From NCBI GenBank assembly GCA_050084515.1, contig CM114271.1, positions 20,460,001 through 20,524,000 on the forward strand: DNA of 64,000 nt, given 5' to 3'. Shown here piece by piece: positions 1,261 to 56,465 of this stretch. Within the stretch, counting starts at the first letter, position 1; each line of letters opens with the position of its first letter. The translations under genes were made by a program, and so were the position numbers. This DNA is from Blasia pusilla (Eukaryota). Under the pieces are notes generated by a model. That model did not search any database, was not told the origin of the DNA, and saw nothing but the letters and a program-made list of their open reading frames with translations.

Positions 1261-1262
1261 AG

Positions 1263-1273
1263 TGGTATCGAGC
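1263..1273 (+). promoter_or_regulatory. Primer-binding site complementary to initiator tRNA-Met
   Basis: tggtatcgagc 2 nt after the LTR. The canonical plant PBS is TGGTATCAGAGC. Confidence 0.85.
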
Positions 1274-1408
1274 TTATCCTTGGTGAGCGAGAACTTGGGG
1301 TCGTGGGATCAGCCGGACGCTTGGGAAATTTCAAGGTAGCGGCTAGACTCGGACGCTCGAGGAGGGACGCAAGAAACGAGGAGGAGATCTGAGTGAGTTG
1401 GCTTGGAG

Positions 1409-6515: not shown

Positions 6516-6529
6516 AAAAGAGGGGTGAG
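6516..6529 (+). promoter_or_regulatory. Polypurine tract of chromovirus copy 1
   Basis: aaaagaggggtgag immediately before the 3' LTR. Confidence 0.8.
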
Positions 6530-7520: not shown

Positions 7521-7523
7521 AGC

Positions 7524-11244: not shown

Positions 11245-12984
11245 TCAGGAGCCACAGAGGATGGCCCCACCACAGCACCAGTGTGACCATTGCCACAGAT
11301 ATGGTCACACTAGGGATAGATGTTTTGACCTTCGACGAGGGGCACGTCCAGAGGTAGGCCGAGAGCCTGGGGATGGTCGTCTTGGAGGAGGTCGGGGAGT
11401 TCTTCTTGGACGTGGTGGTAGAGGACCACCACCAGCCAGAGGAGATGGAGCAGGAGCACCAGAGCCGGCCCTTCTCTCACGCATCGATCAGTTGGAGCAG
11501 AGGATTGTTGCCATGACGATGATGCAGCTTAGGGAAGGCACGGAGCTGTGAGCAGCTAATGTGACTCCAGTCTCTACCTCTTACCCTGACCCGGGTGAGG
11601 ATCTCTCCAGTATGGGATTCATGTGTAGTGCAGCCCAGGTTGAGGCAGTTGCAGTGGTGACTCGGGGTGCTACGAGAGGCACCGAGCCATCGAGAGGTGG
11701 AGTTGAGATTGACCCACCAGAGGGGACCGATGGGCGGCAGGCCAGGGTTCCACAATCGTTCACATTGTCGGAGGCACTACACACACCATCGATGGTGCCT
11801 CGACGACCAGCGGTGCCTACAGTTCAAGCACCTACGTCGACGTCACAAGGAGTTGGAGTAACAACTCCTATGCCGGCTCGAGTGGAGTCAGTGTCGACTA
11901 TAGTGTTGGAGGTGGCCACTAGAGTGAGTCAGACTCCGCTATTTTCCGCCATAGAGTTGGCGATGTTGGGAGTTGGACCAGCTGAGGTGTTCTGGTTGGC
12001 CGCCACGTTGTGTGAGCGTGGAGAGATGACTCCTTCTTGTTCAGAGGTAGTTGAGGAGGTGGTGGACTTGCCCTCAGAGCCGGTGCTTGGGACGTTCCCC
12101 ATAGAGTCATGGCATGCGGCGGCGGCGAAGTTGGTAGATATGTCAGCTCGACCGGCCATAGAGCGAGCAGTGGTGACACCTGGAGTAGTGTTACTGGATA
12201 ACCGAGCTGGAGTATTTTGCTTGGTTAGTCCGACGGGGACGGTATACCACCCGCAGCGCATCCTACTGGATTCGGGAGCGCAACCCTTGATGTTAGGGAA
12301 GGCGGCGTGTTTAGCGTTGGGGTTACGGAAGGCCGACATTGAGCCTCGTCCCTTCCAGATATAGACCTCGATTGGGGGCCTATCACCCACTCAGTATATG
12401 ACTCGACAAGAGATTGTTGTCCGAGTCCAGCCAGAGCATGCGACGGATAGTGCTATGGTGCGACACGCGCGCACGACACACCAACCGTAAAGTCGCACGA
12501 TGTGTTGGTGGGGAGTACAGTGTTATATCCCCTAGGATTCATCCTTGACTTCTGGGAGGAGACCGTTGCTTATCGGCCAGGATGGCGGTCGGGTGACAGC
12601 CGGATGAGTCAGTTACCTGTGCAGTTTGCCGGACGAGATGGTCCATCACGAGGCGAGTCTGTGACCACGTTGGTAGCTTTCACAAGTAGTGTTAGCTGGC
12701 CAGGAGAGTTGTTGGAGGGGAACGCATATGCGGAGGATGTCCCAGTAGCGGATAGTCCCACGGAGAGACAGGCCATGGCGGGTGTCTCTTCCCATGTTGG
12801 CGAGGCCTCTTCACCGTTGTTGGGTACGACTCGGGAGCTACAGAGGAGTGCCGACGACCTCGTGAGGCAGGCGTAGAGTCATGTTTTTATCCCAGAGCAG
12901 TGAGAGTCACATGGCGATCGGGCTCTTGGAGTGGAGACGATGACCCCACTAGATACCACACCTATTGTGTGGCAGTGCCCAGAG

Positions 12985-13945
12985 GAGGGTGTTAGATCTC
13001 TTCGGAGGGATTAGCACCGGATTGGCTGCCATATTGCAGTCGGGCATACGGGTGCATCAAGTACCTTTATGTGGAGAGAGATGAGACCACGCAGCGAGTA
13101 TCATTACGTCACGTGGCAAGATTGGCCCAGAGGTATCATGAGTTGTTGTCGGTATCTGCAGTACGGGGATACCAGCCTACGCTACCCGCCGACATCTCTT
13201 TGGTGGGGGAGCAGGATTTGGATAGAGTTGGCACCATTCATTTGGTGATTGCTGGATGGCCATGTCAGGGTCATTCATCAACTGGCCGAGGATTTGGATT
13301 GCAGGATCCGAGGTCAGGGATGTTTTGGGAGATGTTGCGAGTAGTACGACACTTGCAGGAGAGTCAGATATGTTCTCCAACGTACATTTTGGAGAACGTG
13401 CCGTTGTTGGGAGATACTCGTACACGTGTGATGACGAGTCTACATCAGGTGAGGTCCTGGTTGGGACTGCTGTGTTGTTAGATGCAGCGAGAGTTGGGTC
13501 ACGTGCCCATCGTCCACAACTGTGGAGGACGAACCTGATACCATCAGAGGTACTGAGTCGAGCCTACACTGGAGTCCAGAGAGCACCACATCTCACAGTG
13601 GATGCTATTTTGGACCCAGGGCGTCGATCTCAGGTGGTGACACGCGATGATAGACCACCGTTGGCCACGGCCAATAAGGTGGGGGAGTTGAGGGCAGCCT
13701 TACCTACGTTGGTGAGCTTCCCAGCATCCCATGCCTTTTGTCAGGGAGGGCCACGCATGATTTAGGATGAGGTGACCGGAGTATTGGAGGAGCCTACAGC
13801 AGATGAGCGCGAGCGCGCCATGGGGTTCACTACCGGTACTACGGCGGTGCCAGGGATGATTGAGACATCACGGAGACAAGTGTTGGGGCAGGCAATGGAC
13901 CTCAACTATCTCACATGGATAGTCAGCCTAGGTATGGCTGAGCAG
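12985..13945 (+). other. C5 cytosine DNA methyltransferase domain (DNMT3-like) inside the retrotransposon polyprotein
   Basis: Motif I LDLFGGISTG (12991), motif II YVERD, motif IV AGWPCQG (13251), motif VI LENV (13392), motif VIII SRAHRP..W.TN (13502), motif IX ERERAMGF (13805) and motif X RQVLGQAM (13882), in canonical order. Confidence 0.9.
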
Positions 13946-16900
13946 AGACGGATGCGAGTGTCATCCATGCCGCCACGCCCCAGTTGGACCCACCGCCACG
14001 TGGTCTCAGACAGGCATTGGATGGGGCGTAGACGAGGAGAGATAGGCACCCATGGACTTCCTGGGACGTCGTTCGAGCAGAGAGTGCGAAGGCGGCTAGA
14101 GTAGCACATGTTCATTTTTCGGATATGGAGCATGGTGTAGGAGGTTAGAGTGGAGTGGCTGTTGCGGAGGTGGCTAGGATTGCTACATAGCAACCACAGC
14201 CGGAGGTTGCGTCCTCTCCGAGTGAGGTCACGATGGAGACTTGGGAGACTGTGATAGGTCTCAAGTTGATAGGAGAAGAGCGACGGCGAGTTCATAGGTT
14301 TCTGAGAGGGCATGTCACTTGTTTTGCCTTCAGTATGAGAGACTTGGGTACGCTGAAGGGTCCCGGGATACGGATTGAGTTGGCTAGTGATACGCCAATC
14401 TTTCGTCGACACTACAGGTATTCTAATATGGAGCGAGCCTTGATTCAGAGCAGGAGTCAGGACTTGTTGGAGGCAGGACTTGTGGAGTTATCATATGGGG
14501 AGTATGCATCTGCCAGAGTCATGCCGGCAAAGAAGGATATGTATGGCATTTGGACGGATAGGCGGATGTGTGGAGATTACCGTCCTATCAACCGACAGAC
14601 AAGGTCAGATCGGTATGCCATGCCTACTCCTGAGGAGATCTTTGATGCGGTAGGGCATGCAAATATCTTAAGTACTTTAGATCTCCGTGCTGGCTATCAT
14701 CAACTTCCTATCAGGTTGGAGGACAAGGAGAAGACAACATTCTGGGGGATAGATCGGTTCGGGAGAGATTGCTTGTATCAGTGGTGGTTCTTACCATTTG
14801 GATTGAAGAACGCGCCTGCGGAGTTTCAGAGAGTGATGGATAAGATTCTGGCTGGCTTGGATTTTGTACGATGTTACATAGATGATATTCTTATCTTCAG
14901 TTCCACGGTTGAGGAGCATGAGCGACACTTGGAGGAGGTATTTCGGCGATTGCAGTTACATGGACTGAAGTTACATCCAGGCAAGTGCAGATTCTTTCAG
15001 GAGTAGATTGAGTACTTGGGACACACCATATACCCGAGTGGGTTAGGCATTCAGCAGACGAAGGTAGAGGCTATTGTGCAGATTCCACGCCCTACAGATG
15101 TGAGTCGAGTCCGAGCATTTCTTGGACTGGCGAACTTCTATCGACAGTATGTCAAGGGTTTTAGTGCGATCGCAAAGTCTTTGACCTTGTTGATGAGACT
15201 TGATCAGGTGTGGTTGTGGGGAGATGATCAGAGCGAGCATTTCAGAGCTCAGGACAAAGTTGACGTCCTCACCCATTTTACAGAGACCGGTTAGGGGTCG
15301 CCCATTCCAGTTACATACGGATTGGAGCATGTTGGGTCTAGGAGCAGTGCTTACTTAGAGGGATGACGAGGAGAGGGAGTTCGTTGTGGCTTACGCAAGC
15401 CGATCGAACAACATTGCAGAGGCAAAGTACAGCTCCTACAAGGGAGAGTGCTTGGCTGCAATGTGGGCCGTGGCACATTTTAGGTGCTATTTATTCGGCA
15501 ACCCTTTCATACTTATCACTGATCATCAGCCGTTGAGGTGGTTGATAGAGTCCGACAAGCTTACGGGAAAGCTTGCCAGGTGGGCTCTATTACTACAGGA
15601 TTATGACTTCGAGGTGGTTCATAGACCAGGTCGGATGAACTAGGATGCGGATGGGTTGAGTCGTAACCCATGTCCGAGTCAGAGAGACGTCATGGGAGCT
15701 CGATGGCACGGAGAGAGTGACGAGGAGATGGTGCCCGGTTGGCATGCATCTGCCTATCTTTGTTGGTTGACTATGGCAAGTCAGCCACAGGTGATGACTC
15801 CAGTGGTGGGATTGGATGATGAGTCTTTGGATCCGGAGGTTAGTGAGGAGGCGACAGGTGGTCGTGATATCCATGACGACGTGGAGGTTGTGGAGTTCTT
15901 GCACACTGGCGTCATTGCGAGTACAGTGAGTGCTAGGGAGCGGGATCGGATCCTACTGAGAGCCAAGAGGTTCAGGTGGGAGGGGACTCACATTTTACGG
16001 GTATGGGGAGATGGTAGGATACGAGTGGTACCTCATCCTTCTCAGCGAGCACGTGTAGTGCGACATGCCCATGAGGAGTTGGGACATTTCGGAGTAAAGC
16101 GTACTTACAGCTTACTCCAAGTTCAAGATTGGTGGGCGCATGCATGCATATGGTACTGGTACAGATTTGTGGCCAGATGTATAGTATGTGACAGAGTGGG
16201 AGCATTGAAGGATGCTCGCACTCTGTCACATCCTTCAATGCTCCCACTCCGCATTTACATCCTTTGCCGATTATGGGTTTAGGTTATCGGTGGAGTTTAG
16301 ACTTTGCGGGACCTTTGCCATTGACAGGGCGTCATCATAAGTACGTGTTGGTCATGGTGGAGCATTTCTCCAAGTGGATAGAGTTGGTGGCACTACTAGA
16401 CAAGGCAAGCAAGGGAACAACTTATGCGTTTCTAGATCGTGTGCTTAGTCACTTTGGTGCACCGGCGAAGGTGTTGACTGACCAGGGTATCGAGTTCAGG
16501 GGAGAGTTTCAGGCCTTATGTGATCAGGCGCTGATAGATCACCGCACCACGTCCAGGGATCATCCTAAGGCGGATGGGTTGGCGGAGAGAGTGGTACAGA
16601 CGGTGAAGAGAGGATTGTGCAAGTATGGCTTGCAGCGGGGACAGGTGAGGGAGTGGGACCTACAGTTGCCATGGTTGGCTATGGGTTATCGCTTTAGTCG
16701 GCAGGCATCCTTGGCATCATTTTCACCGTAATTTTTGCTCTTTGGGAGAGAGCCAGATTTACCTCCAGCCATTCGACGTGACATGGCAGAGGTGTTAGAT
16801 CTTGATGATCCAGATGTGTGGGTACAAGCATGTTCTCAGAGGGCAGAAGTTTTTCGTAGAGTTATGCCTATGGCCTTTGAGAACTTAGCTATTGCCCAGC

Positions 16901-17195
16901 ATAGAGATACATTGAGATATGCGACCATTCGTGGAGGAGGTTATTGTCCAGGGATTAGGAGGTTTCATCCTGGAGATTACGTGTATTTACAGCACGCGGC
17001 ACCCACGACGCTAGATGTCACTGCAGGCGCCGCGATCCCACGTGTGCGCGAGGTATTACCGACCGAGTCCTCATGTTGGAGGGACGGGATGGTATGGTTT
17101 GGAAGGATCATGTGCGCAATTGTGCGCCATGTCATCTTTCAAACATAGATGGGACGGTGGATCCGAGCTTGGCAGTGGTACCTGCAGGCTTGAGG

Positions 17196-17333
17196 TGTAT
17201 GTTGTGCGGATCTACGAGGGGACCAGCCACCATGTTGGTATGTGATGGTTGTTCTCGAGGGTGGCATATGTTATGTCTGACCCCCCCTCTTGATGTGGTT
17301 CCCACGGGACGATGGATGTGTCCGAGATGTGTA
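17196..17333 (+). other. PHD zinc finger at the integrase C-terminus
   Basis: CMLCGSTRGPATMLVCDGCSRGWHMLCLTPPLDVVPTGRWMCPRC, a C4HC3 pattern. Also present at 47664-47810. Confidence 0.95.
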
Positions 17334-17412
17334 TAGGGCAGTAGGTCATGTCAGAGAGATGTGATATTTTCTATCTGGAGTTAGGGGGATCCAACTGCCA
17401 ACTAGGGGGGTG

Positions 17413-18137
17413 GTTGTGTGATCTCCATGTATATGTATGAGTTGATTTTTTGTACATGTGTGGATCGACCTGTGTGTGGGGAAGATCGGTGTTGTGTGGT
17501 GTAGATGTGACGAGCGATGTATGTTGTGTAGCGATATGTATGTGCACGACAGGTGTCACATCTGAGTTGCCGATAGGACGAGATCTATCGTGGATAGGGC
17601 GTAGGAGCCAGCGGACTATCTTGAGTATAACTTTGTCCCACGGTATCGGATGAGGTTGAGGATAGGTCCATTGTGTCAGGAATGTTGTTCCTAACAACTT
17701 TCATATTGAGGTCTTTTACAGCCGGGTGACTTATTGACCAGGTCACCCGCCCCTGTTAACCTGTGCGCACGGGTTACCAAGGGAAGGGCTATTTTTAGGG
17801 GAAGAGCCTTTTGGCTCTTCCTAACCCTATATAAGAGAGGAAGATGGCTTTCCTAAGCCATCTTTCTCATGTTGGGCCATTGGAGCACCTCCCTTGTATG
17901 TGTGTGAGCTAGGACTAGGGTGCTAGCGTCCGGATTCCTTGATAGCACAGGGTGGACGAGGCTCAATATCCCGATGTAGATTGAGGAGTGAAGTTTTAGT
18001 TGTGTGATCTCCATATATATGTATGAGTTGATTTTTTGTACATGTGTGGATCGACCCGTGTGTGGGGAAGATCGGTGTTGTGTGGTGTAGATGTGACGAG
18101 CGATGAATGTTGTGTAGCGATATGTATGCGCACGATA
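17413..18137 (+). repeat. 3' split-direct-repeat block B1-gg-A2-B2 of copy S1
   Basis: 139-bp B at 17413-17551 and 17999-18137. A (17554-17998) matches the 5' termini of copies S2 (32643-33096) and S3 (55858-56193) and contains a TATA-like ctatataag at ~17827. Confidence 0.92.
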
Positions 18138-23277: not shown

Positions 23278-26200
23278 TATTACCGACAGCTTACGATCTT
23301 CAAAGCTGCAACCAACAGGAAAATGGCGATCGCTACAACATCACAACGTCCCGCAGTCCTGCGCTCGCCTTCGCCTTCGCCTCCGTCCGCTTCCCGATTT
23401 CTGTCTCCCTCTCCGCCCTCCCTCTTCTTCCCAGGACCGACGGGGGCGGTATTCGCCGAGCGCCACTGGCGTGGCGAGGATCCATTGGCCTGTGGAGAGC
23501 CTCTATCTTGCCAGTCAGCAGCAGCCAGTGACAAGTGGAGTAGCGAATCTCCCTCTGGTGTACATATTATATCTGCTCTCCTCGTTTGCCAGCACACTGT
23601 GCGAGCGGTCTTTGCTGCGATCTCATCGATCTGTCCGGCACGCAGGACCCGCTCACCCGTCGATTGTGCGGAAGCCGGGCCGGGCCTTTTTAAACTCCGT
23701 GTTCGGAAGTGGATACCAAGGGGTGTCAAATCCATCCCGTATGAGCTTAACATTTCAAATCGAAACACCCGTGTGAGAACCTGAACCCAACGGAGATGAA
23801 CGTTCCTTGGATCCACCCTAGCTTATCATCGCTCTCCGGCGAAAAGATAAATGCCTTAGGGTTTTTTTTCATTAGGGTTTGCTTATGTTTAACAACATAG
23901 AAATTCGTGTCTACTTGTAAGTGTGAGGTATAAAAAAGTGTTTGTTAGTAAATGCACCTGGGATTAAAGGGAAATATAAAAGTGTTTGAAGAGTTTTTTT
24001 AATGAAAATTAAAAAAATTAATGTAAGTGTATAATTCGTGAAGGGAAAAGTTTAATGATATTGAATGTCCAAAAAAATCAAATTCTTTTCTTATTGTTAG
24101 AAGTATGTTAAACATTCACGTGTCAAACAAAGAGGTGTTTACAAATCAAGAAAACATTCTCCCGTAATAATATAGATATCTATGTTATTATTACAACGAT
24201 AACATTACCTTTATTTTTTATTGCAATTAATTTGAAATATTCTATCATTATACAAATTAAGCACTACATCGTATCAAAGTTGAATTTCTTTGAGCTTTAC
24301 TAAGTTGCAATGCATGGTGTATAACTGCTTGCTAACTACTAGCTTTCTAGTCTTTACTCAACTAGAACGCATATGTGCTTGCTCATGCGATTTCACATCT
24401 CTAGTCACCTAGGCATAGCATATGTATTTCATGCTATTCATGATAATGATACAATAATGTTTGTATTTTTCAAGTTCTCTAGCCCCTACGTGAACGACTC
24501 CGCACCTTCTTGACGAATCCTTCTTGGACAACACAACGCTTACACCACAGTGGCTACATGAACTACTCTCAGCTACACAACTACTTCCGGTTGGCCTTTG
24601 GACCAGTTGTACATCTGCTCTCGTTGGCCTTCGGATCAGCTTGGCACTCGCTTGTATCTGTGCATCCATCTCAACAAGATAGAGTATCTACAAAGGCATC
24701 TTCATAGCATTACAAATGGTAGCTAGAAGAAAAAACAATAAAAGGCATGCAAGGAAAGGGGAAGGGTGTAGTGAAGAGTGGCACTTCGTCGAAAAAGCAC
24801 TATGGCGTGGAGTGTGTAGATGCCACGCCTTTGGAGAGCTACAAGTGGTCTCCAACAACACATGATGAGTGTATCCCATTGAGTGGTTGTAAGAATTCTT
24901 AGTTGGCCATTAGCCCTATATAGGGCATGAGGTTGAGTCCTTCAGAAGCTCCACTCTTCACATATGCTTGAAGGGATTCCATCCCTTCATTAGATGCACT
25001 AGAAGGATTGAGTATGAGGTATTTCCCAAGGGATGTGAAAGATATGAATGTATTTGATAAGGAAAATCACGAAACCCCACAATATCAATTGAAGAGGCCC
25101 ACAAGTCAAAGAGATATTGCAATCGGGTCGGCATTTGGCAAGAAGGGTCAGAGCATACTTTTTAGAAAAACCTAAGAGTTCTCGCCATCAATATAACGGA
25201 CCCCACCCTTGGAGGAGAAGGCACCTAAGCCAATCCCACAAGTAACCAAAAATCCTCAAAAAGCTAAAAGGGAATGTGTCGTGCGCATACATATCGCTAC
25301 ACAACTCACATCGTTGTTCACATCTACACACCACACAACACCGATCTTCCCCAACATACGGGTATATTCATACATAAATGAAACATACTCATGCATATAC
25401 TGGGACCCCACAACCGCCCCCCTAGCTGGCAGTTGGGTCCCCCAAACTCCAGATAGCACACATATGTCCTTGATATGATCTCCTATCCTATACACATCTA
25501 GCACCATCGATGCCGTCGTCCCCGCAACACTGCCAACTGGAGCATCCCGCCATGTTGGTCTCTCCAAAGAGATCTAACACTCTCGTACCCTGCTCCAAAC
25601 ATAGGAACGGCTCCAGGCGTGCCTCATGAGCTTGTCTGCACTCCACGTATCTCAACGCTCATCCCCAACAACAATAAACGAAGCTCCGCACCATGGGAAG
25701 AGACACCCACCCTGGCATGTCTCTCTGTGGGACTATTCACTACGAGAATGTCCTCCGCATGTGTCATCCTCTCCCTGAACCCTACTGATCGGCAAACACC
25801 ACATGTGAATGGTGCCAACATGGTCACCATATCCTCATGCGGTCGACCACCACTACTCCCTACAAACAACACCGGTAGATGGCTCACCCGTCCATCACCT
25901 GATCGCCACCATGGCCGATAATTAAGAAGTGTCTTCTCCCAAAAATCTAAAATAAAACCAAGAGGGTACAACATCGTAATCCCTACCAACACATCATACG
26001 ACTTTGTCGATGTTGTAATCGCCCGAGTGCGCACCATTGCACTATCCATCTCATACTCTGGCTGGAGTCTAATCACTAACTCCTATCGATTCATGTATTG
26101 CGTGGGTGATATGCCCCTAGTAGAGTTCTGTATCTGAAAGGAACAACGCTCGATGTTGCCTTTCTGTAAACCCAACGCCAAACACGCCGCCTTCCCTGCC

Positions 26201-29200
26201 ATCAAGGGCTGCGCTCCCTAATCAAGTAAGACGCGCTGCGGGTGGTACACCATACCTATGGAACTAACCAAGTGAGACACTCCTGCTTGGTTATTCAACA
26301 ACACCACACTTGGTGTGATCATGGCTCGCTCTATCGCTGGCCTAGCCGGCATATCTACCAACTTCATCGTGGCCGCATGCCATGACTCAGTGCGGGACAT
26401 CCCGAGCACCTGCTCCAAGGGCAAGTCCACCACCTCCTCAACTACCTCTGAACGAGAATTAGTCACCTCTACACGCTCACACAACATGACGGCCAGCCGG
26501 AACACCTCCGCTGGTCCAACTCCCAATGTCGCCAACTCCATGGCTGAAAATAATGGAGTGTGGCTCACCCTAGTGGCCACCTCCAACAACATGGTCGACA
26601 CTGGCTCCTCCCGAGCTAGCATAGGATTCGTCTCTCCAACTCCTTGACGTCGATGCACCTATCCCACCTGTGGGTACTACTGGTCGTCAAGGCACCATAG
26701 ACGATGTATGTAGTGCCTCCGATAATGTGAGCAATTGGGGAACCCTGGCCTGCCGCCCATCAGTCCCCTCCTGTGGGTCAATCTCAATCCCATCTCTTGA
26801 TGGCTCGGTTACTCTTGCAGCACCCCGAGTCACCACCTCAACCTGAGCTGCACTACACATAAATCCCATCCCCACAGAATCCTCACCAGTATCGTGGTAA
26901 GATGTGGAAGTTAGCGCCACACTAGCTACTCTCAGCTCCGCGCTTGCCTGCAACTGCATCATCGTCATGGTAGCAATCCTCTGCTCCAACTGATCGATGC
27001 GCATAAGGAGGGTTGCATCGGGTGCACGTCCTCCATCTCTTGTGACTGGTGATGGTACTACCACCATGATCATCTACTACTTGATCTCCACCAACTCTCT
27101 CGCCCCCAAGTTCTCTACCTACCTCTGGACGTACCTCATGGCAAAGATCATGACACCTATCCCTAGTGTGATCATATCGGTGAGAATGGTCACACTGAAA
27201 CTGTGGTGGGGCCATCCTCTATGGCTCCTGAGCAATTGGAGGCGCTTGTGGCCCTCTCCCATGATGTGGGCAGTCCCTCTGCCCAAGTGATCCACCACAC
27301 GTCCAACAAGCCAACCCTAGTCCTTGCTAGGAAACATATGTCGGTATGGGTTTTTGCCTCATCAGCTCACGATATCCGCCATGCTCTCTAGGCCCACTAG
27401 CCCGCTCCTATGGTACTAGTGCATGTTGGGGCACCTGTGGGTCTACTCCTACTCGTCGAATCCTGTGGTCACCACCTGCTCCTCACTCATGTTGAGCTCT
27501 ACCCGCTAAGACAACTCGAAGATCACCTTCAATGTGGGCTTCGCCGTGTGATGCAACATCGCATGCCAAACTCTCCTCTGTAGCTCCTCATCCAACACCT
27601 CATACCAATACTCTACTGACTGTGCCTCAGTCACCCCATATGTGGCAAAAATCAATTGTCGCATGCGCATGAATCCCTCCCTCATACTCTCAACCAATCT
27701 CCATTAAAAATCTTGTAAACTCTTCAGCTTGTCGATCCGCACGCCCTGGTAGCTCCTCCCAAATTGTCAAAAGAACTCCACTGTAGGATTGAAACTCGGT
27801 GGTCCTCTACCACAAGAAGTCTCTGCCACCTCACCACTCTCACTGCCATCCTCTCCATCTAGTCCTCGGGCTGATGGTGTAGGCCTCTCTGCCCTCACTA
27901 TCCCATCATACGCCTCGTAGCCACTAGTGGACATATACCATGAAGCCCAATATACCCTCCAGGCATCGATCTCTACAGAGTATAGAGATTAGAACTCCAT
28001 GTAGTTATCCATCACCGGACCCTCCAAGTGCTGGAACAACCCCTTCCATGCCATAAAAGGGTTGAATCGCATAGGGGCCGTATCTCCTGGAAGTTGCACA
28101 ACTTGTCGAACTCCCGGATGAAGTCATCTAAATCTATGGTGCCTACCGCACCCAAGAAACGACGCATGCCCCGGTAGCCCATGTCGTCCATCTCTCTCCA
28201 CATTTCACTGTTCTCGTCCGTGATCTCGTTACCAGACTCGCTGTCTAGTGATGATGATCCAGCCACTAATGGGAGTCAGGGTGGTTCCTCACTTGAAACA
28301 CCTCGATAGCTCACACCACTCCGTGTCACTCCATTACCACTACTCCTACTACCCCATTCTTCAAAACTCTAGAAGAACGCCGTGATGATAACCCTGTCTT
28401 ACACTCTCAAGCACTTAGACTCACCAAGAGTCTCCTACACTCCTCACTAGCTCACCTACGCTAATGGTAATCCCGTGACGACACAACCAACCTCATGCAC
28501 ACTCAACACTTGGGCTCACCATGAGCCTCTCGACTAACTCACCTAAGTCATAAACATACTCTCGGGTCATACACAAGACCCCTACTCGGCAACCGCCATA
28601 TATCCACAAACATGCTACACATGCATGGAGACTACACTCGTCACCATCGCTACACCCATCTAGCACCAGCTACTACTCGACCCAACACTCTCAATCACAC
28701 AAGATAAGTGCGGGAAAAGGGACTCGAATGGGTAACCTGATCACGCCATCCAACTTATTGCATAGTCAACACGGACTCCTCCATGTGATACGACAACCTC
28801 CGCAACACGAAATTCTCCTCAACACATGTCAAACCTCCCATCAATGGATGCAGACTACTCGTCGGCATCAACACGTGTGTCTCCATCACAACCCTTGCAA
28901 ATCCCAGTCGGTGAAGAACTAATGAGTCGACCCCCAACCAACTCGTAATAACTGCCAAACTCTCGTCGTGAATCCCACCATGCTCGCGAAACACCAAGTC
29001 TCAAAATGCTCTCCTACTGCGTAACTCAACGCAATCACATCCGCCCCCCCTCAAACTGGTAGCCTAAACCAACCACGTCCGACTTCTTGCTCCTACCACG
29101 TCTGCTCCTGCCTCTCCCACGTCGGCCTTGCTCGACTACATCAACTACCACCAGCCTGGTCGGGGTCAGGGTTTAGGGTTTAGGGTTAAGGTTTAACCAT

Positions 29201-33571: not shown

Positions 33572-36500
33572 TCTTATGTCTTTTGCGATGGATTGACGAG
33601 CTTGTGATAGAGTGCCTTCGATGATATTAGAGGACAACCTCAAGATGTCATGGATGACCTGTTGAGGCATCAAGTAACCTGAGAGAGCAAGTTTCCCCTT
33701 CGTTTCGGCTCATTTGGAGCCATATAGATAAAATTACTATTTTGGGTAAGCTATCGTTATAAGTGGAATTTAGTTTCTACTTTGGGAAGTGGCCCTTGAT
33801 CCCCTCCAGCAAGTCAAGAGCCAAGGAGGTGACCTGCGAGCATAGGTTACCATAGAGAGAGCGTGAGAGAGGGAAGGAGGTATACCCAAGGAGAGAGAGC
33901 TTTGGAACTCATTCTCTCTTTGTTGAACCTCTTGGCATGAGGCGGACGAGCTATGGTCTTCCTTGCTTTGTGAGTAATCCAAGTCTTCTATTAGGAGAGT
34001 GGGTTTGGTTTGACATGAGAAAGAGATGTAGTTGTGTGCATATTATGAGAGATATTTGTTGTGCGCATACACATCACTACATAACATACATCGTTGTCAC
34101 CGAACACACACACAAACACGTACAATCCCATGCTAACTCATGACATCCAAACAACAAGACCAGAAGTACCAAAATATCTCATCAAGTATAACAATGCTCC
34201 ATCAACCAAGACATCGTAGGACTCCGCATCAGTCACTATCGCCTTAGCTCGCACCACGGACTCATCTGTAGGATGTCCTGGGCGAATCCTCACCACGACC
34301 TCATGTTGGGTGATATACTGTGTGGTACTTGCTCCACCCAAGGATGTCTGTATCCGGAATGGACAACGCTCCACATCGGCTCTCGTCAAGCCCAATCCTC
34401 TGAATGACAATTTTCCCAACATCATGGGTTGCGCTCCTGAATCCAACAAGACGCGTTGCGGACTAAAAGCTCTACTTCCGGGACTCACCAACTGGAATAC
34501 CTCTCCCCGGTTATCCAGCAACACAGCACCAGGAGAAGCCATGACATGCTCTATCATGGGTCTAGCGAGCATCTCCGCCATCCTAGCAATCGTAGCCTGC
34601 CATGGATATGACGTGGATGGCCCGATCATCCGCTCCAAGGGCAGGTCCATCACCTCCTCTGCAATCACCTCTGAACGTGATGCAAGAACTCCAACTCCAC
34701 ACTCACATAGCGTAGCGACCAGCCGGAACACCTCGACGGGCGTACCTCCCAATGTCATAACATCGGAAGCAGAAAATAGCAGAGCACGGTACACCATCGT
34801 GGCCGCCCCCAACATCGTACTCGACACATGCTCCTCCTGAGCGTCGGCAATAGGAGTTGTCGCACTTGTTTCTCCCATTTTCCTCCATGCCTACACACCA
34901 ATAACATCACCAACTCTCCGGGAATTCTGATTAGGACCCATCAATGGGATCCTCATAGCCTCGGACAACGTGAAAGATTGAGGAAGTCTGGTCTGTTTCG
35001 TGGCTTTCCCCACTTTGGATCCAACTCTGCGACTGCTCCACACGTCATAATTGCGGCGGCCTCCATCTGGGCAACCCCGCACATCCAACTAGGGTCCTCC
35101 ATATCTGTGGCTGCTCCATATGATGTTGATGCCACGGATCCGGCATCGGGTAACCTCAATGCCATAGCGGCAATCTGCTCATGTAGCTGGTGTGTATGAG
35201 TAGGCATCCTCGCCTCATGCCCAGTGTCTCCCTCGACGCATCTAGATGGTGGGACTCTACCTCCTCCACGGGCAATTCCACCACCATGTCAAGCAACTTT
35301 AGCTCCTCGTCCCCCAATGGGACCACCTGGTGCACAACCTCTAGCCCACCCGTACCGGCTAGTGGCTCTGGTGCCCTCTCTAGCTCTCGGTCCGGATGTA
35401 ACTCAGGGTGTAAACTGAAACACTTGGCGCATGTCTGACCATACCTCTAAAAATAGGCACACTGATAACCTCTTGGTGCAGCACCATCTCTTCCTCCATG
35501 ATGAGGCACACGTATATGACCCTTACGAGTGCAATTATGCTGATGATGGGCTCCACCACATGACCAACAAGTAATAGTAGGCGGCTGCTGCTGAGCCGCA
35601 TATGAAGGCACATGTCTCTATGGCATGGCCTCATGGTATCCTCCCTAAGCTCATGGTGCCACAGTCAACCTATCTCGAAGTCTATGTTGCTGCACTGGTG
35701 GTACAGGCAATCGTGACTTCTCTCGCCTAGAACCCATGGTGGATGCGCTCTCCTCCGCCATGTTGCGCTTAATATTCTTGGCGGTCCTAAAAAAATCTCT
35801 CAATGTAGGGGAGGTGTTCATAGGAAGCACCCCTCCCGCACCCGTGTCTGCTGGGTCCAATCCATGCATCGCGTACCATGACTGGATAGCCTAAGCCTTT
35901 GTCAACCCATGAGTGACGTTGATCAACTGGCACAAGCGAGTGTAAGCATCATGCAAACTCTCACCCGGGCGCCTGTGGAAGTTGTGGATGCTCCGCAACT
36001 TCTCTGTCTGTACCCCCTCGTAGCTCGCCCTCAACTCAACGAAGAACTCAACCACCAGGTTGAAGCTGGGACGAACCCGACTAGACGGTACAACTGCTCC
36101 AGTGCGAGTGACCCCTCCTAGTAGAAGAGGAAGTAGCCTCTCCTGACTCCTCCTCCTCATCTGGGAATGGCTCCGTCCATGACACATAGTGTGGGTTATT
36201 GTAGAGTCGTCATGCCTCAATCTCTTGGGCATGTCTGTGGGAGAACTCATGGTAATTGTCCATGGGCGCCCCCTCTAAATGCTAGAACATACTGCTCCAT
36301 GTTGTAAACGGGTTGAACTCTCTAGAGTTCCCAGCCTATTGTGAGTCATACCAACTTCTAAACTCTGTAATGAAGTCGTGTAGCTCTAAAGCGCCTACAC
36401 CACCCAAAAACCTATGCGGTTCTCTACCCCGGTCGTCCATCTTGTACGCCCAACTGGTAGGACCACTCAATGTGTACGGTGGATCACTAACACACTCCTC

Positions 36501-47200: not shown

Positions 47201-50200
47201 TGTCGTGCGCATACATATCACTACACAACATATATCGCTGGTCACATCTACACCACACAACATTGATCTTCCCCATACACGGGTAGATCCACACATGTAC
47301 AGAAATCAAATCATACATATACATGGAGATCACACAACTCCTCAACCTCATCCGACACCGTGGGACAAAGTTACACTCAAGAGAGTCCGCTAGCTCCTAC
47401 ACCCTATCCACGATAGATCTCGGCCTATCGGCTACTCAGATGTGACAACTGTCGTGCGCATACATATCGCTACACAACATACATCGCTGGTCACATCTAC
47501 ACCACACAACACCGATCTTCCCCATACACGGGTAGATTCACACATGTACAGAAATCAACTCATACATATACATGGAGATCACACAACCGACCCCCTAGTT
47601 GGAAGTTGGATCCCCCCAACTCCAGATAGAAAATATCTTATCTCTCTGACATGATCTACTAGCCTATACACATCTCGGACATATCCATCGTCTTGTGGGA
47701 ACTACATCAAGAGGGGGGGTCAGACATGACATATGCCACCCTTGAAAACAACCATCACATACCAACATGGTGGCTGCACCCCTCGCAAATCCGCACAACA
47801 TACACCTCAAGCCTGCAAGTACCACTGCCAAGCTTGGACCCACTATCTCGTCCACGTTTGGAAGATGACATAGCGCAAAATGGCGCACATGATTCTTCCA
47901 AACCATACCATCCCGTCCTTCCAACATGAGGACTCCGGTCGGTAATACCTTGCGCACATGTAAGATCGTGCGTCATGCAGTGATATCTAGCAACGTGGGT
48001 GCTGCCTGTTGTTAATACACGTAATCTCCAGGATGAAACCTCCTAATCCCTGGACAATAACCTCCTCCATGAATGGTCGCATACCTGAATGTATCTCTAT
48101 GCTGAGCAATAGTTAAGTTCTCAAAGGCCATGGGCATAACTCTACGAAAAATCTCTGCCCTCTATGAACACGCTTGTACCCACACATCTCGATCATCAAG
48201 ATCTAACACCTTCGCCATGTCACGTCGAATAGCTGCAGGTAAATGTGGCTCTCTCCCAAAGAGCAAAAAGTACGTGAAAATGACGCCAAGGATGCCTACC
48301 GACTAAAGGTAACCCACTAGCCAACCTCAAAGGTCCCACTCCCTAGCCCCCGCTGCAAGCCATACTTGTGCAATTCTCTCTTCACCGTCTGTACCACTCT
48401 CTCCGCCAACCCATCCGCCTCAGGATGATCTCTGGACGTGGTGCGGTGACCTATCATCGCCTGATCACACAAGCCTGAAACTCTCCCCTGAACTCAATAC
48501 CCTGGTCAGTCAACACCTCCGCCGGTGCACCAAAGTGACTAAGCACACGATCTAGAAACGCATAAGCTGTTCCCTCGCTCGCCTTGTCTGGTAGTGCCAC
48601 CAACTCTATCTTGTCGTGCGCATACACATTGCTACACAACATACATCGCTGTCACCGAACACACACACAAACACGAACATAACTTGGACTTGAGAAGCGG
48701 ATGAGGCATTCAACCAAATCAAGGAGATCCTATTGCAAGAACCAATGTAGAAGCTATTGGAGTCTTACAAACCATTTGAGGTGCATACTGGTGCTAGTAA
48801 TTTTGCTATTGCAGGAATATTGGTGAAGGATGATCCCATGCTAACTCATGGCATCCAAACAACGAGACAAGAAGTACCAAAATATCTCCAATTAAAGTAA
48901 GATCCAATCTCTCTCTCCACCATCTCACAACATAGCTCTCAAAGATGTGCACTCTCTCTCATGTCAAACCAAACCCACTCTCCTAATGAGAGGCTTGGGT
49001 TACACTCACAAGGCGAGATACCATAGCTCCGCCGCCTCATGCCAAGAGGTTCAACAAAGAGAGAATGAACTCTCAAGCTCTCTCTCCTTGAGGTATACCC
49101 CTCCCCTCTCCCAAGCTCTCTCCATGGTAACCTATTCTCCCAAGTCACCTCCTTGGCTCTTGACCTGATGTAGGAGGTCAAGGGCCACTTACCAAAAATA
49201 GAAAGTCGATCATATACTTAAAATGGTACTTACCTAAAATAGTAAGTTCCTCAATATGGCTCCAAATGAGCCGAAACGAAGGGGAAACTTGCTCTCTCAA
49301 GTTTCGTGGGGCCTCAGCAAGTCATCCGCGACCTACTGAGCGTATCCTCCACTACTCACGTAGACACTCTATTAGATCTCACCGATCTATCCTAAAAGAC
49401 GTGACAATTCACTTGGAGAAATGCTCCACCATGACCAACACGTACCTACGATGATGCCCCGTCAATGGCAAAGGTCCCGCAAAGTCTAAACTCCACCGAT
49501 AACCTAAACCCATAATCGGCAAAGGATGTAACTGCAGAGTGGGAGCATTGAAGGATGCCCGTATCTATCAAACCATACATCTGGCCACAAACTGCTGTAC
49601 CCGAGTATGCATGCCGCGCCACCAATACTGAACATGGAGTAAGTTGTAAGTACGCTTTACTCCGAAATGTCCCAACTCCTCACGCGCATGTCGCAATACA
49701 CGTGCTCGCTGGGAAGGATGAGGTATCACTCGTATCCTACCATCTCGCCATATCCGCAAAATGTGAGTCCCCTCCCACCTGAACCTCTTGGCTCTCTGTA
49801 GGATCCGATCCCGCCCCTAGCACTCATCAGACTTAATGACGCCAATGCGCAAGAACTCCACAACCTCCCCGTCGTCATGGATATCATGACCAACTGTCGC
49901 CTCCTCACTGACCTCCGGATCCAAAGACTCATCATCCAACCCCACCATTGGAGTCATCACTTGCGATTGACCTACCATAGTCAACCAACAAAGATAGGCA
50001 GATGCATGCCAATTGGGCACCATCTCCTCATCACTCTCTTCGTGCCATGGAGCTCTAGTGTCATCTCTCTGACTTAGACATGGGTTACGACTCAACCCAT
50101 TCGCATCCTGGTTTAGCCAACTTGGCCTATGAACCACCTCAAACTCATACTCATGTAGTAATAGAGCCCACCTAGCAAGCTTTCCGGTAAGCTTTTCGGA

Positions 50201-56193: not shown

Positions 56194-56465
56194 AAGGAAA
56201 CCAATTTAGCTTAACCACGGGGCCAAATCCAGAAAATATTAACTTTCGATTGAACACAAATCTACAAAGTTTAAACAAACGTTTAACCACACGACGAGCT
56301 ATGAGAGAGAATAAAGAAAGATCTGTGGAGGAAGGGAGCGATGGGTTCAAGAGAAATGCCCCAACAACGAAGAATCGTAGTAGAGAATCCCATGGGTGAT
56401 CGACAGGATGAAGTAGTACGTGTCGAACGCAGAGATCGTGAGAATTGCAGCGTAACGTCGCGTGA

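What the first reader, a model, noticed from the sequence alone, without database searches (positions are those of the whole stretch)
12985..13945. Retrotransposon carries a DNMT3-like cytosine methyltransferase between protease and RT
Seen: C5-MTase motifs I (LDLFGGISTG), II, IV (GWPCQ, catalytic PC), VI (ENV), VIII (AHRP), IX and X in order, inside the polyprotein. Copy S3 confirms motifs I-II (GVRVLDLFGGISTRLAAVLQAGIRVHEYLYVERD). The motif I, VIII and IX wording resembles DNMT3. Established: MTase-bearing retrotransposons have been reported from dinoflagellates and charophyte algae but are not a standard feature of land-plant Gypsy elements. Inference: the element may methylate its own cDNA or insertion site, for host mimicry or self-regulation.
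Basis: partly seen in the sequence, partly recalled or inferred. Interest (0 to 1): 0.9.

Follow-up and report, generated by a model that had tools for sequence, protein, structure and literature searches.

The report
Retrotransposon carrying a DNMT3-type methyltransferase
This is a decayed copy of a plant jumping gene whose own coding region includes a DNA-methylating enzyme of the DNMT3 type, a kind so far described only from an alga but here found in a land plant and its moss and liverwort relatives.

Summary
Window 12985-13945 (+) encodes a C5 cytosine methyltransferase domain with motifs I, IV, VI, VIII, IX and X in order (PF00145, E 5e-10). It lies between protease and reverse transcriptase of a Ty3/Gypsy-type element.

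A profile of relatives matches DNMT3A/3C/3B far better than DRM or bacterial enzymes. A confident model of a relative folds like DNMT3.

The domain is not a one-off capture:
- It holds the same position in Marchantia, Calypogeia and Sphagnum proteins and in 35 of 35 related metagenome loci that show both domains.
- It is about as constrained as RT.
- Closterium carries it in the same order. Chlorophytes carry it between RNase H and integrase.

New anatomy:
- DNMT ends ORF1 (gag-PR-DNMT), and a conserved in-frame UAG precedes RT-RH-IN-PHD.
- Termini are split direct repeats (A-coding-B-A-B) with 4-bp target duplications. This is the repeat pattern reported for KnitGypsy-Dnmt3 of Klebsormidium.

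This copy is dead and 5'-truncated. Self-methylation of the element's cDNA remains an inference. Eight literature searches found no report from land plants or chlorophytes.

Verdict: a new member of a known kind.

The parts
11245..18137 (+). Copy 1 of the DNMT-bearing Gypsy-type element. It is 5'-truncated: the first ~300 aa of gag, the leader and the 5' repeat are missing.
   Evidence: tblastn of Marchantia P0009 starts at its residue 303 at 11225. Homology to copies 2 and 3 starts at 11245-11247, and 10001-11244 matches an unrelated repeat.
11245..12100 (+). gag remnant with a CCHC zinc knuckle (CDHCHRYGHTRDRC, about 11285-11330)
   Evidence: ORF 11234-11551 translation; aligns to the gag part of P0009
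12200..12880 (+). Aspartic protease region (LLDSGAQ near 12265)
   Evidence: ORF 11552-12364 translation. Relatives P0033 and P0040 carry Pfam Asp_protease_2 and gag-asp_proteas at the aligned place. There was no Pfam hit on the window piece itself.
12985..13945 (+). DNMT3-type C5 cytosine methyltransferase domain, motifs I-X. It is broken by frameshifts near 13055 and 13460 and by a TAG at 13766-13768.
   Evidence: PF00145 E 5e-10; translation; motif positions; family profile best matches DNMT3A, E 4e-27; fold of relative P0002 matches DNMT3A/B/C
13946..14187 (+). C-terminal tail of ORF1 (HPW..W(D/N)V segment), with a further frameshift and a stop at 14146-14148
14188..14190 (+). Conserved in-frame stop (TAG, followed by CAA CCA) separating ORF1 (gag-PR-DNMT) from ORF2 (RT-RH-IN-PHD)
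   Evidence: 36 of the 50 sequences examined (49 type-I loci plus the window) show the '*QP...TWE' junction. The stop is TAG in 23 and TAA in 13, and the next codons are CAA CCN in 36 of 36. Marchantia and Calypogeia gene models end at the same place.
14191..15294 (+). Reverse transcriptase
   Evidence: PF00078 E 1.4e-26
15359..15643 (+). RNase H
   Evidence: Aligns to the RT_RNaseH part of P0011
16037..16566 (+). Integrase: H2C2 zinc domain (16037-16198) and catalytic core (16285-16566)
   Evidence: PF17921 E 1.1e-6; PF00665 E 1.2e-14
17196..17333 (+). PHD finger at the integrase C-terminus
   Evidence: PF00628 E 1.5e-11. The nearest solved PHDs are CHD4, DPF2/3, PHF12, KDM5A/B, ATXR5, PHF21A, UHRF1 and AIRE.
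17400..17412 (+). Purine-rich tract (CTAGGGGGGTGG) directly before repeat B1. It is conserved in copy 2 and in loci L042 and L049.
17413..17549 (+). Repeat B1 (137 bp)
   Evidence: 97.1% identical to 17999-18135
17553..17998 (+). Repeat A2. Its counterpart A1 is lost from copy 1 but present at the 5' end of copy 2.
   Evidence: Matches 56193-55858 at 79-88%
17999..18137 (+). Repeat B2, the 3' end of the element
47201..56194 (-). It has A1 at 56194-55858, B1 at 47587-47450, a remnant of A2, and B2 at 47338-47201. Termini are TGTCAC...CGACA and it is flanked by CCTT on both sides. Motifs I-II lie at about 51920-51740, and motifs IV-X are deleted.
25277..28838 (-). Copy 3: gag-PR joined directly to the 3' end. 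It has no DNMT, RT or IN and is a deletion derivative.
34174..36425 (-). Copy 4: gag-PR fragment of a related element

Best explanation
The region is the methyltransferase domain of a dead, 5'-truncated copy of a Ty3/Gypsy-type retrotransposon family that carries a DNMT3-type cytosine-5 DNA methyltransferase as a regular, selected part of its coding capacity.

Shown here:
- The domain order is gag(CCHC)-PR-DNMT | in-frame UAG | RT-RH-IN-PHD.
- The integrated unit is A-coding-B-A-B (split direct repeats), with TGTCA...CGACA ends and 4-bp target-site duplications.
- The family occurs in bryophytes (Marchantia, Calypogeia, Sphagnum) and, in the same domain order, in the streptophyte alga Closterium.
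- A sister group in chlorophytes has RT-RH-DNMT-IN-PHD.

Inferred, about 35-40% likely as the main function:
- DNMT is made at Gag-like abundance as the C-terminal domain of the Gag-PR-DNMT precursor.
- It is taken into the particle or released by the protease.
- It methylates the newly made cDNA or the fresh insertion de novo.
- The integrase-borne PHD finger, which resembles readers of the unmethylated H3 tail, steers insertion to chromatin without H3K4 methylation.

The benefit to the element could be passing as already-methylated host DNA, or damping its own expression. This is not known.
For: Identity of the domain:
- PF00145 scores 39.8 bits on the window piece, and all catalytic motifs are present.
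- A profile of 20 relatives hits DNMT3A at 4e-27, DNMT3C at 3.5e-24 and DNMT3B at 1e-23. It hits tobacco DRM at 4e-15, AtDRM2 at 1e-11, HaeIII at 1e-8 and DNMT2 at 5e-6, and lists no DNMT1. The alignment to DNMT3A runs through the target-recognition region and motifs IX-X.
- The AlphaFold model of relative P0002 has pLDDT 88.7, and every listed Foldseek PDB match is DNMT3A, 3B or 3C (best E 2.9e-18; target TM 0.79-0.84 for catalytic-domain chains, 0.42-0.57 for longer chains).

A regular part of the element:
- 42 longer proteins match, including Marchantia models with gag-PR-DNMT or PR-DNMT-RT-RH.
- The metagenome scan returned 80 loci. DNMT precedes RT in 35 of the 35 type-I loci that show both.
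- A PHD follows IN in 14 of 15 type-I and 16 of 16 type-II loci with room for it.

Selection:
- Window against 42 type-I loci gives a median dN/dS of 0.129, range 0.089-0.215.
- Uncorrected pN/pS is 0.31-0.35 for DNMT, 0.25 for RT, 0.19 for RH, 0.20 for IN and 0.48 for gag/PR.
- Cys and Gln of PCQ and Glu of ENV are invariant in the 20-sequence alignment.

ORF structure: a conserved stop followed by CAA CCN is present in 36 of the 36 sequences that show the junction.

Ends: 4-bp duplications were found in 3 of 3 complete elements checked, CCTT in window copy 2, AAGG in L042 and CATA in L049.

Repeats: the A-coding-B-A-B pattern is seen in window copies 1 and 2, L042 and L049. The Fig. 4c legend of PMC5890265 gives the same pattern for KnitGypsy-Dnmt3 (passages).

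Placement: the window falls in a clade of 19 rows with all bryophyte sequences (SH-aLRT 99, quick tree).

Host: a co-resident PPR gene has seed-plant orthologues at 44-52% identity.

Transcription: three RNA runs of the coded organism A laid 106, 112 and 138 reads. Nearly all have the first mate on the minus strand. Some cross the GWPCQ codons from diverged relatives.
Against: - This copy cannot make the enzyme. It has three frameshifts and two premature stops between 12985 and 14187, further breaks in pol, and no 5' end.
- Only 2 of 49 type-I metagenome loci have a DNMT domain free of stops and shifts, and none has a whole open polyprotein. Current activity of the bryophyte lineage is therefore not shown.
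- Among those decayed loci the pairwise dN/dS is high (median 0.585).
- pS between the window and the loci is near saturation (0.69-0.78), so the dN/dS values are rough.
- No methylation activity has been shown for any Gypsy-borne DNMT3. The yeast assay of the Klebsormidium domain gave no methylation and was called inconclusive (PMC5890265).
- Readthrough of the UAG, packaging of DNMT and histone reading by the PHD are inferred from sequence only.
- The RNA reads are few and mostly 95-99% alike, so they come from other copies.
- The strand reading assumes a dUTP-type library.
- The relation to the Klebsormidium elements rests on the shared architecture as described in the text. I had no Klebsormidium sequence.
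Confidence: 0.8

Rival explanations
1. The methyltransferase stretch is a one-off event: a host DNMT gene fragment captured by this copy, a nested insertion, or an assembly chimera. On this reading it is not a functional part of the element family.
For: Only one of the four related copies in the window has the whole domain. That copy is broken.
Against: The domain has the same position and flanks in 35 of 35 type-I loci with both domains, and in proteins of three bryophyte genera. Copy 2 keeps motifs I-II and lost the rest by a plain deletion. The domain evolves under constraint close to that of RT. DNA contigs of an independent run cover the region.
Confidence: 0.02
2. The domain is real and selected but acts on RNA, as DNMT2 does. 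It would methylate the element's genomic RNA or its primer rather than DNA.
For: de Mendoza et al. raise RNA methylation as a possibility for the LINE-borne DNMT (PMC5890265). The enzyme would sit in ORF1 with Gag, which binds RNA. No DNA methylation was obtained with the Klebsormidium domain.
Against: The profile and the fold both match DNA-methylating DNMT3A/B/C far better than DNMT2 (4e-27 against 5e-6). The alignment includes the DNMT3A DNA-recognition region.
Confidence: 0.08
3. The domain is kept for a non-catalytic role. It might serve as a DNMT3L-like partner that recruits or blocks the host's DNMT3, or as a chromatin or DNA tether for the pre-integration complex.
For: DNMT3 enzymes work as oligomers with an inactive partner; this is general knowledge that I recalled and did not test. 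The published activity test of the algal domain was negative or inconclusive.
Against: Catalytic residues are invariant or nearly so across divergent members: Cys and Gln of PCQ, Glu of ENV, and His-Arg-x-Arg of motif VIII. They are also present in the window copy. Inactive paralogues usually lose them.
Confidence: 0.08
4. The copies are domesticated host genes derived from an element, not transposon parts.
For: Marchantia and Calypogeia annotations list them as genes.
Against: They are multi-copy and are flanked by terminal repeats and target duplications. They are mostly riddled with C-to-T type stops: 52 TGA at Arg, 41 TAG at Gln and 19 TAA at Gln positions. They sit among other repeats in this window.
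Confidence: 0.02

Closest known systems
KnitGypsy-Dnmt3 of Klebsormidium nitens (de Mendoza et al. 2018, Nat Commun 9:1341, PMC5890265; I saw passages of section 9, the Fig. 4 legend, section 10 and the discussion)
   Same: A non-permuted DNMT3-type domain inside the coding region of an element with Gypsy-type domains. The repeats are arranged as in DIRS elements (A-coding-B-A-B). The DNMT domain is under purifying selection. The host is a streptophyte.
   Different: The host here is a land plant, and the relatives are bryophytes. The paper treats the acquisition as specific to the K. nitens lineage and does not mention Marchantia, liverworts or a PHD finger (0 occurrences). I could not see Fig. 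4c or the supplements. I therefore do not know whether the algal element has the same order (PR-DNMT-RT), the ORF1 stop or the PHD. No sequence comparison was possible.
SymbioDIRS-Dnmt3 of Symbiodinium (same paper)
   Same: A DNMT3-type domain in a retrotransposon, with A-coding-B-A-B repeats. De novo CG methylation was shown in yeast for two copies.
   Different: Those are DIRS elements with a tyrosine recombinase in a dinoflagellate. The element here has a DDE integrase and makes 4-bp target duplications.
Host DNMT3 (animal DNMT3A/B/C; plant DNMT3, such as the Physcomitrium and Marchantia enzymes discussed in PMC6453930 and bioRxiv 10.1101/2021.02.12.428880)
   Same: The catalytic domain matches in sequence profile and in fold, with motif order I-X.
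   Different: There is no PWWP or ADD region next to the domain. It is embedded after a retroelement protease. PCQ replaces PCN in motif IV. Its position relative to plant host DNMT3 in a tree was not tested.
Chromoviruses (Gypsy elements with an integrase chromodomain) and PHD-bearing retrotransposons cited in PMC6673714 (passage)
   Same: A histone-reader module is fused to the C-terminus of the integrase, presumably for target choice.
   Different: I recall these as readers of the unmodified H3 tail.
Retroviral and plant-viral leaky stop codons (MLV gag-pol UAG; the tobamovirus UAG-CAR-YYA context; both recalled, not from a call)
   Same: An in-frame UAG separates an upstream structural frame from the polymerase frame, and it is followed by CAA CCN.
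   Different: The upstream frame here also holds the protease and the methyltransferase. Readthrough itself is not shown.

Membership tests
C5 cytosine methyltransferase (Pfam PF00145) | Score above the curated threshold | tested here: met
   39.8 bits against a cut-off of 22, E 5e-10, for 12996-13481
C5 cytosine methyltransferase (Pfam PF00145) | Motif I FxGxG, motif IV Pro-Cys, motif VI ENV, and motifs VIII, IX and X in order | tested here: met
   DLFGG at 12995, GWPCQ at 13254, then ILENV, AHRPQLWRTN, ERERAMGF and LGQAMD
C5 cytosine methyltransferase (Pfam PF00145) | Open reading frame able to give an enzyme | tested here: not met
   Within the domain there are frameshifts near 13055 and 13460 and a stop at 13766. 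The tail has a further shift and a stop at 14146. This copy is a pseudogene.
DNMT3 class | Closer to DNMT3 than to DNMT1, DNMT2, DRM or bacterial enzymes | tested here: met
   Profile A1 gives DNMT3A 4e-27, 3C 3.5e-24, 3B 1e-23, DRM 4e-15 to 1e-11, HaeIII 1e-8 and DNMT2 5e-6, with no DNMT1. The single window fragment alone found only HhaI and HaeIII weakly.
DNMT3 class | Fold of the catalytic domain, including the short target-recognition region | tested here: met
   Model of relative P0002 (pLDDT 88.7). Every listed PDB match is DNMT3A/B/C, with target TM 0.79-0.84 for catalytic-domain chains. This was tested on a relative, not on the broken window copy.
DNMT3 class | Motifs not circularly permuted (unlike DRM) | tested here: met
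   Order I-IV-VI-VIII-IX-X
DNMT3 class | PWWP and/or ADD regulatory domains N-terminal to the catalytic domain | tested here: not met
   Pfam finds only gag, protease and DNA_methylase in ORF1 of the window pieces and of P0009, P0012, P0033 and P0040. A PHD finger exists, but on the integrase.
DNMT3 class | Branches inside the DNMT3 clade in a tree with host DNMT3, DRM and outgroups | not tested
   No host DNMT3 or DRM sequences could be fetched with the tools left.
Gypsy-DNMT3 retrotransposons (KnitGypsy-Dnmt3 type) | DNMT3 domain inside the coding region of an element with Gypsy-type RT-RH-IN | tested here: met
Gypsy-DNMT3 retrotransposons (KnitGypsy-Dnmt3 type) | DIRS-like repeat arrangement, A-coding-B-A-B | tested here: met
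   Window copy 1 has B-A-B at 17413-18137. Copy 2 has A at its 5' end and B-A'-B at its 3' end. L042 and L049 are complete.
Gypsy-DNMT3 retrotransposons (KnitGypsy-Dnmt3 type) | Purifying selection on the DNMT domain | tested here: met
   Median dN/dS is 0.129 for the window against 42 loci. pN/pS is 0.31-0.35 against 0.25 for RT. Synonymous sites are near saturation.
Gypsy-DNMT3 retrotransposons (KnitGypsy-Dnmt3 type) | Sequence kinship with the Klebsormidium copies | not testable with these tools
   No Klebsormidium protein appeared among named hits, and none could be fetched.
Gypsy-DNMT3 retrotransposons (KnitGypsy-Dnmt3 type) | De novo DNA methylation activity | not testable with these tools
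   Inconclusive even for the type element (PMC5890265)
Ty3/Gypsy LTR retrotransposon | Order PR-RT-RH-IN with a DDE integrase | tested here: met
   PF00078, PF17921 and PF00665 in that order
Ty3/Gypsy LTR retrotransposon | Target-site duplication and TG...CA ends | tested here: met
   4-bp duplications in 3 of 3 complete elements, with ends TGTCA...CGACA
Ty3/Gypsy LTR retrotransposon | Two identical long terminal repeats | tested here: not met
   Split direct repeats are found instead
Chromovirus | Chromodomain at the integrase C-terminus | tested here: not met
   Only PHD families hit 16959-17336

The most novel reading that the evidence does not exclude
DNMT3-bearing Gypsy elements are not a quirk of one alga. 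They would be an old lineage of the green plants that carries both a writer and a reader of chromatin state. The writer is a DNMT3 catalytic domain. The lineage would have passed from chlorophytes (RT-RH-DNMT-IN-PHD) through streptophyte algae (Closterium, Klebsormidium) into land plants (gag-PR-DNMT | UAG | RT-RH-IN-PHD). In the streptophyte form the enzyme is translated with Gag, upstream of a leaky stop, and so in large excess over RT and integrase. If some bryophyte copies are still active, land plants including the model Marchantia would hold transposon-encoded de novo methyltransferases. These would pre-methylate new insertions and might add to the host methylome.
Probability: 0.3. Interest if true: 0.8.

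Novelty: new member of a known kind. Interest (0 to 1): 0.62.

Why it matters
Cytosine methylation is the host's main tool for silencing transposons, so a transposon that brings its own de novo methyltransferase inverts the usual picture. The only published Gypsy example is from one charophyte alga and was read as a lineage-specific acquisition.

The data here place the same kind of element in a land plant. Many relatives occur in Marchantia, Calypogeia and Sphagnum, further ones in Closterium, and a rearranged sister group occurs in chlorophytes. This points to an old and persistent association rather than a recent accident.

It also makes the question open to experiment, because Marchantia is a genetic model with methylome resources.

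Two features give concrete hypotheses for how the enzyme is delivered and where the element lands. The enzyme sits in the Gag reading frame before a conserved stop, and the integrase constantly carries a PHD finger.

Tried and rejected
- The whole genome of the window is not held, so copy number and intact copies in the host could not be surveyed.
- A single-sequence PDB search with the 161-aa window fragment gave only weak HhaI and HaeIII hits. This would have argued against DNMT3, but the profile and the fold overturned it.
- NCBIfam gave only the generic dcm superfamily, below its cut-off.
- The protein atlas returned only generic PF00145 clusters, one streptophyte and two viral, and added nothing.
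- Pfam on ten mid-length hits, done to find host-type DNMT3 (PWWP/ADD), found only transposon domains. No host DNMT3 was obtained for a tree.
- Cluster look-ups named Scenedesmus and Closterium but not Klebsormidium.
- The look-up of sequencing runs listed no RNA holder.
- I did not resolve a primer-binding site or a replication scheme for the A-coding-B-A-B form. The sequences after repeat A differ between the window and L042/L049.
- I considered a canonical LTR made of B+A with a partial tandem copy. I rejected it because three complete elements end exactly at A-start and B-end with matching 4-bp duplications.
- Literature: eight searches and term look-ups in seven papers found no report of DNMT-bearing Gypsy elements in bryophytes, other land plants or chlorophytes. 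Subscription journals and all supplements were out of reach. An RT tree against reference Gypsy lineages was not made, because no reference set was at hand.
Full report
**What is at the coordinates**

Translating 12880-14200 in three frames shows a cytosine-5 methyltransferase domain.
- Motif I, VLDLFGGISTG, has DLFGG starting at 12995.
- A motif II-like stretch, YLYVERD, follows.
- Motif IV is IAGWPCQG, with GWPCQ at 13254.
- Then come motif VI (YILENV), motif VIII (GSRAHRPQLWRTN), motif IX (ADERERAMGF) and motif X (LGQAMD).

The order is unpermuted, up to about 13945. The piece 12996-13481 scores 39.8 bits on PF00145, with cut-off 22 and E 5e-10.

The frame is broken:
- It shifts near 13055 and near 13460.
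- There is a TAG at 13766-13768, where relatives have Trp.
- It shifts again between about 13960 and 14030, and there is a TAG at 14146-14148.

**Surroundings**

The domain lies in a plus-strand element. Its parts, in order:
- a gag remnant with a CCHC knuckle, about 11290
- protease (LLDSGAQ near 12265)
- DNMT
- RT (PF00078, E 1.4e-26)
- RNase H
- integrase (PF17921, PF00665)
- a C-terminal PHD finger (PF00628, E 1.5e-11)

Compared with Marchantia protein P0009, the copy starts only at residue 303. Upstream, 10001-11244 is an unrelated repeat that also occurs at 264-1492 and 6526-7522. Copy 1 is therefore 5'-truncated at 11245.

The window holds three more relatives:
- Copy 2 lies on the minus strand, 56194-47201, and is 88-91% identical.
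- Copy 3 (28838-25277) joins gag-PR straight to the 3' end.
- Copy 4 (36425-34174) holds gag-PR only.

It lost the equivalent of 13163-14010.

A host gene lies at 40028-42010. It is an intronless PPR protein whose named relatives are seed-plant At5g39980-like proteins at 44-52% identity. The host is therefore a land plant, but not a seed plant represented in that database.

**Class of the enzyme**

The window fragment alone found only HhaI and HaeIII weakly in the PDB. A profile of 20 short relatives (A1) gave a clear order:
- DNMT3A 4e-27, DNMT3C 3.5e-24, DNMT3B 1e-23
- tobacco DRM 4e-15, Arabidopsis DRM2 1e-11
- HaeIII 1e-8, HhaI 1e-7, DNMT2 5e-6
- no DNMT1

The alignment to DNMT3A runs through motif I, motifs IV-VIII, the target-recognition stretch and motifs IX-X.

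An AlphaFold model of the relative P0002 is confident: pLDDT 88.7 and pTM 0.87. Every listed Foldseek match in the PDB is DNMT3A, 3B or 3C, with best E 2.9e-18. Target TM is 0.79-0.84 for catalytic-domain chains and 0.42-0.57 for longer chains.

The label 'DNMT3-like' is supported. No PWWP or ADD region accompanies the domain. A tree with host DNMT3 was not possible.

**A family trait, not a one-off**

A word-seeded search with the window piece found 42 longer proteins. The best, at 64-71% identity, come from Marchantia polymorpha (many), Calypogeia fissa, Sphagnum and unnamed metagenome sources. Marchantia models show gag-PR-DNMT or PR-DNMT-RT-RH.

The exhaustive search found 1266 proteins at E up to 0.001. 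Of ten mid-length hits checked, five carried transposon domains beside the methylase and five the methylase alone; none showed host-type domains.

A profile search added chlorophyte polyproteins from Monoraphidium, Haematococcus, Cymbomonas and Tetraselmis. A cluster look-up added Scenedesmus. Most of them carry RVT, RNase H, rve and PHD. Further look-ups named Closterium species for a third group.

The metagenome scan returned 80 loci. They fall into two groups:
- L001-L049 ('type I') have the window's order, with DNMT before RT in 35 of the 35 loci that show both.
- L050-L080 ('type II') have RT-RH-DNMT-IN-PHD, in 20 of 20, often as open frames of 1100-3300 codons.

A PHD follows the integrase in 14 of 15 type-I and 16 of 16 type-II loci that have room for it.

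In a quick maximum-likelihood tree of 68 domains rooted on Tetraselmis:
- The window sits in a clade of 19 rows (SH-aLRT 99) with all Marchantia, Calypogeia and Sphagnum rows.
- Inside that clade its position is unresolved, at or near the base.
- Chlorophyte rows form a separate clade of 26 (SH-aLRT 99).
- The Closterium rows form a third group.

The tree used 68 of the 126 full-length domains available, chosen by me for named taxa and spread. Support values come from the quick method only.

**Selection**

Codons were compared position by position through tblastn segments.
- The window against 42 type-I loci gives a median dN/dS of 0.129, range 0.089-0.215. The remaining 7 of 49 gave no estimate; the three of them printed were saturated.
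- Uncorrected pN/pS is 0.31 and 0.35 for two DNMT pieces, 0.25 for RT, 0.19 for RH, 0.20 for the IN core and 0.48 for gag/PR.

The methyltransferase has therefore been kept almost as strictly as the replication enzymes.

Against this:
- pS is 0.69-0.78, near saturation.
- Pairs among the type-I loci themselves give a median of 0.585 (1118 pairs). This fits decay after insertion.
- Only 2 of 49 type-I loci (L005, L021) have a DNMT domain without stops or shifts.
- None has a whole open polyprotein.

Most stops sit at Arg positions read as TGA (52), Gln positions read as TAG (41) and Gln positions read as TAA (19). These are C-to-T changes as expected of methylated DNA. CpG observed/expected is 0.63-0.71 in the four copies.

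**Expression strategy**

Just before RT there is a stop in the same frame as both the DNMT tail and RT. The junction '...SPKVFA * QPMASSS...TWEP' is found in 36 of the 50 sequences examined (49 type-I loci plus the window). The stop is TAG in 23 and TAA in 13, always followed by CAA CCN. The window has TAG CAA CCA at 14188-14196.

Gene models of Marchantia and Calypogeia, and two unnamed proteins, end at the same point. The first frame is therefore gag-PR-DNMT, and RT-RH-IN-PHD would need readthrough.

The context resembles the UAG-CAR-YYA leaky stop of tobamoviruses and the UAG of MLV gag-pol. Both are recalled and were not tested.

**Ends**

- Copy 1 ends with B (17413-17549), A (17553-17998) and B (17999-18137). 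The two B copies are 97% identical.
- Copy 2 begins with A alone (56194-55858). It ends with B, a remnant of A, and B (47587-47201).
- Loci L042 and L049 show the full A-coding-B-A-B layout.
- All three complete elements begin TGTCA, end CGACA and are flanked by a 4-bp duplication: CCTT, AAGG and CATA.
- A purine-rich CTAGGGGGG tract precedes the first B in all four.

This split-repeat layout is what the Fig. 4c legend of de Mendoza et al. 2018 states for KnitGypsy-Dnmt3. [quoted passage not shown]

**PHD finger**

Its nearest solved relatives are the CHD4 PHDs, DPF2/DPF3, PHF12, KDM5A/B PHD1, KMT2C/D, ATXR5, PHF21A, KAT6A, UHRF1 and AIRE. To my recollection these mostly read the H3 tail without K4 methylation. 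That is a lead, not a test.

**Transcription**

Runs are coded. DNA runs of 'organism A' hold up to 0.37 of the sampled words, and 51746 contig pieces of run X1 lie on the element. That marks a very repetitive family.

Three RNA runs of the same species label laid 106, 112 and 138 reads out of 10-12 million read. Most are 95-99% alike, nearly all have the first mate on the minus strand, and most fall over RT-IN. Depth is 0.3-2.5 over 12893-13304.

Ten to fifteen reads per run fit only 13240-13274 (the GWPCQ codons) and run on unlike the window on both sides. They come from diverged DNMT-bearing relatives. This shows low-level transcription of family members, not of this copy.

**How it most likely works**

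Shown: the anatomy, the class of the enzyme, its conservation and its spread.

Inferred:
- Gag-PR-DNMT is the abundant product.
- The enzyme reaches the particle or nucleus with Gag.
- It methylates the cDNA or the new insertion.
- The PHD guides integration.

I put about 35-40% on this as the main function. That is the hypothesis de Mendoza et al. proposed for the DIRS elements. Their yeast assay worked for two Symbiodinium DIRS domains but not for the Klebsormidium domain, which they call inconclusive.

The rivals are RNA methylation and a non-catalytic partner or tether role, each below 10%. Chance capture and a domesticated host gene are each about 2%.

**Comparison and novelty**

The closest known system is KnitGypsy-Dnmt3. 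Three of its stated features were tested here and met: a DNMT3 domain in a Gypsy-type coding region, DIRS-like repeats, and purifying selection. Sequence kinship and activity could not be tested.

Eight literature searches and term look-ups in seven papers gave no report from bryophytes, other land plants or chlorophytes. Later papers cite only 'streptophytes (Gypsy-DNMT3)', with reference to the 2018 work. Supplements and subscription journals were not searchable.

I rate it a new member of a known kind. Its interest lies in the wider and older distribution, the ORF1 placement with a conserved stop, and the constant PHD partner.

Noticed in passing
window 40028-42010 (+): An intronless 660-codon open frame encodes a P-type pentatricopeptide repeat protein (PPR_2, E 2.7e-95). 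Named relatives are At5g39980-like chloroplast PPR proteins of seed plants at 44-52% identity, and an unnamed protein matches at 61%. It is a host gene surrounded by retroelements.
   Followed up: partly
window 264-1492 (-), 6526-7522 (-), 10001-11244 (+): Three copies, about 93% identical, of a 1.0-1.2 kb repeat unrelated to the DNMT element. The third abuts the truncation point of copy 1 at 11245. They may be terminal repeats of another element family.
   Followed up: no
window 7793-9098 (-) and 1825-2478 (+): A different Gypsy-type RT/RNase H (PF00078, PF17919), only about 30% identical to the DNMT family's RT. A separate Retrotrans_gag frame lies on the other strand.
   Followed up: no
window 25277-28838 (-): Copy 3 joins gag-PR directly to the 3' end of the element. 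This is an internal deletion derivative that could only move with proteins from other copies.
   Followed up: partly
window 22741-23784 (+) and 30168-31238 (+): Two open frames of 347 and 356 codons with no Pfam match.
   Followed up: no
loci L050-L080, e.g. L067:1865-11851, L051:721-6750: Aquatic-metagenome elements with the order RT-RH-DNMT-IN-PHD, mostly in long open frames (up to 3329 codons). They group with Scenedesmus, Monoraphidium, Haematococcus and Cymbomonas proteins, and they look far less decayed than the bryophyte-type loci.
   Followed up: partly
proteins P0113, P0126, P0138, P0391 (Closterium spp.); P0158, P0254 (unnamed): A third group has the DNMT ahead of RT: DNMT-RVT in P0113, CCHC-DNMT in P0126, and CCHC-PR-DNMT-RT-RH-IN in P0158. 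No PHD hit was found in P0158 or in P0254's listed domains. The named members come from Zygnematophyceae, the algal sisters of land plants.
   Followed up: partly
window 13059, 13317 and other places (read-laying table 4): Genomic contigs of the coded DNA run differ from the window by single-base indels at several places in the element. One is at the first frameshift site of the DNMT domain. Copies in that organism therefore differ in which frames are broken.
   Followed up: no
window 17413-18137; L042:10238-10805; L049:14637-15205: Inside the B-A-B block, the B-end to A-start junction reads ...CGACA(1-2 nt)TGTCA.... This is the two element ends placed head to tail, like a circle junction. How a DDE-integrase element copies such split repeats is unexplained.
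   Followed up: partly
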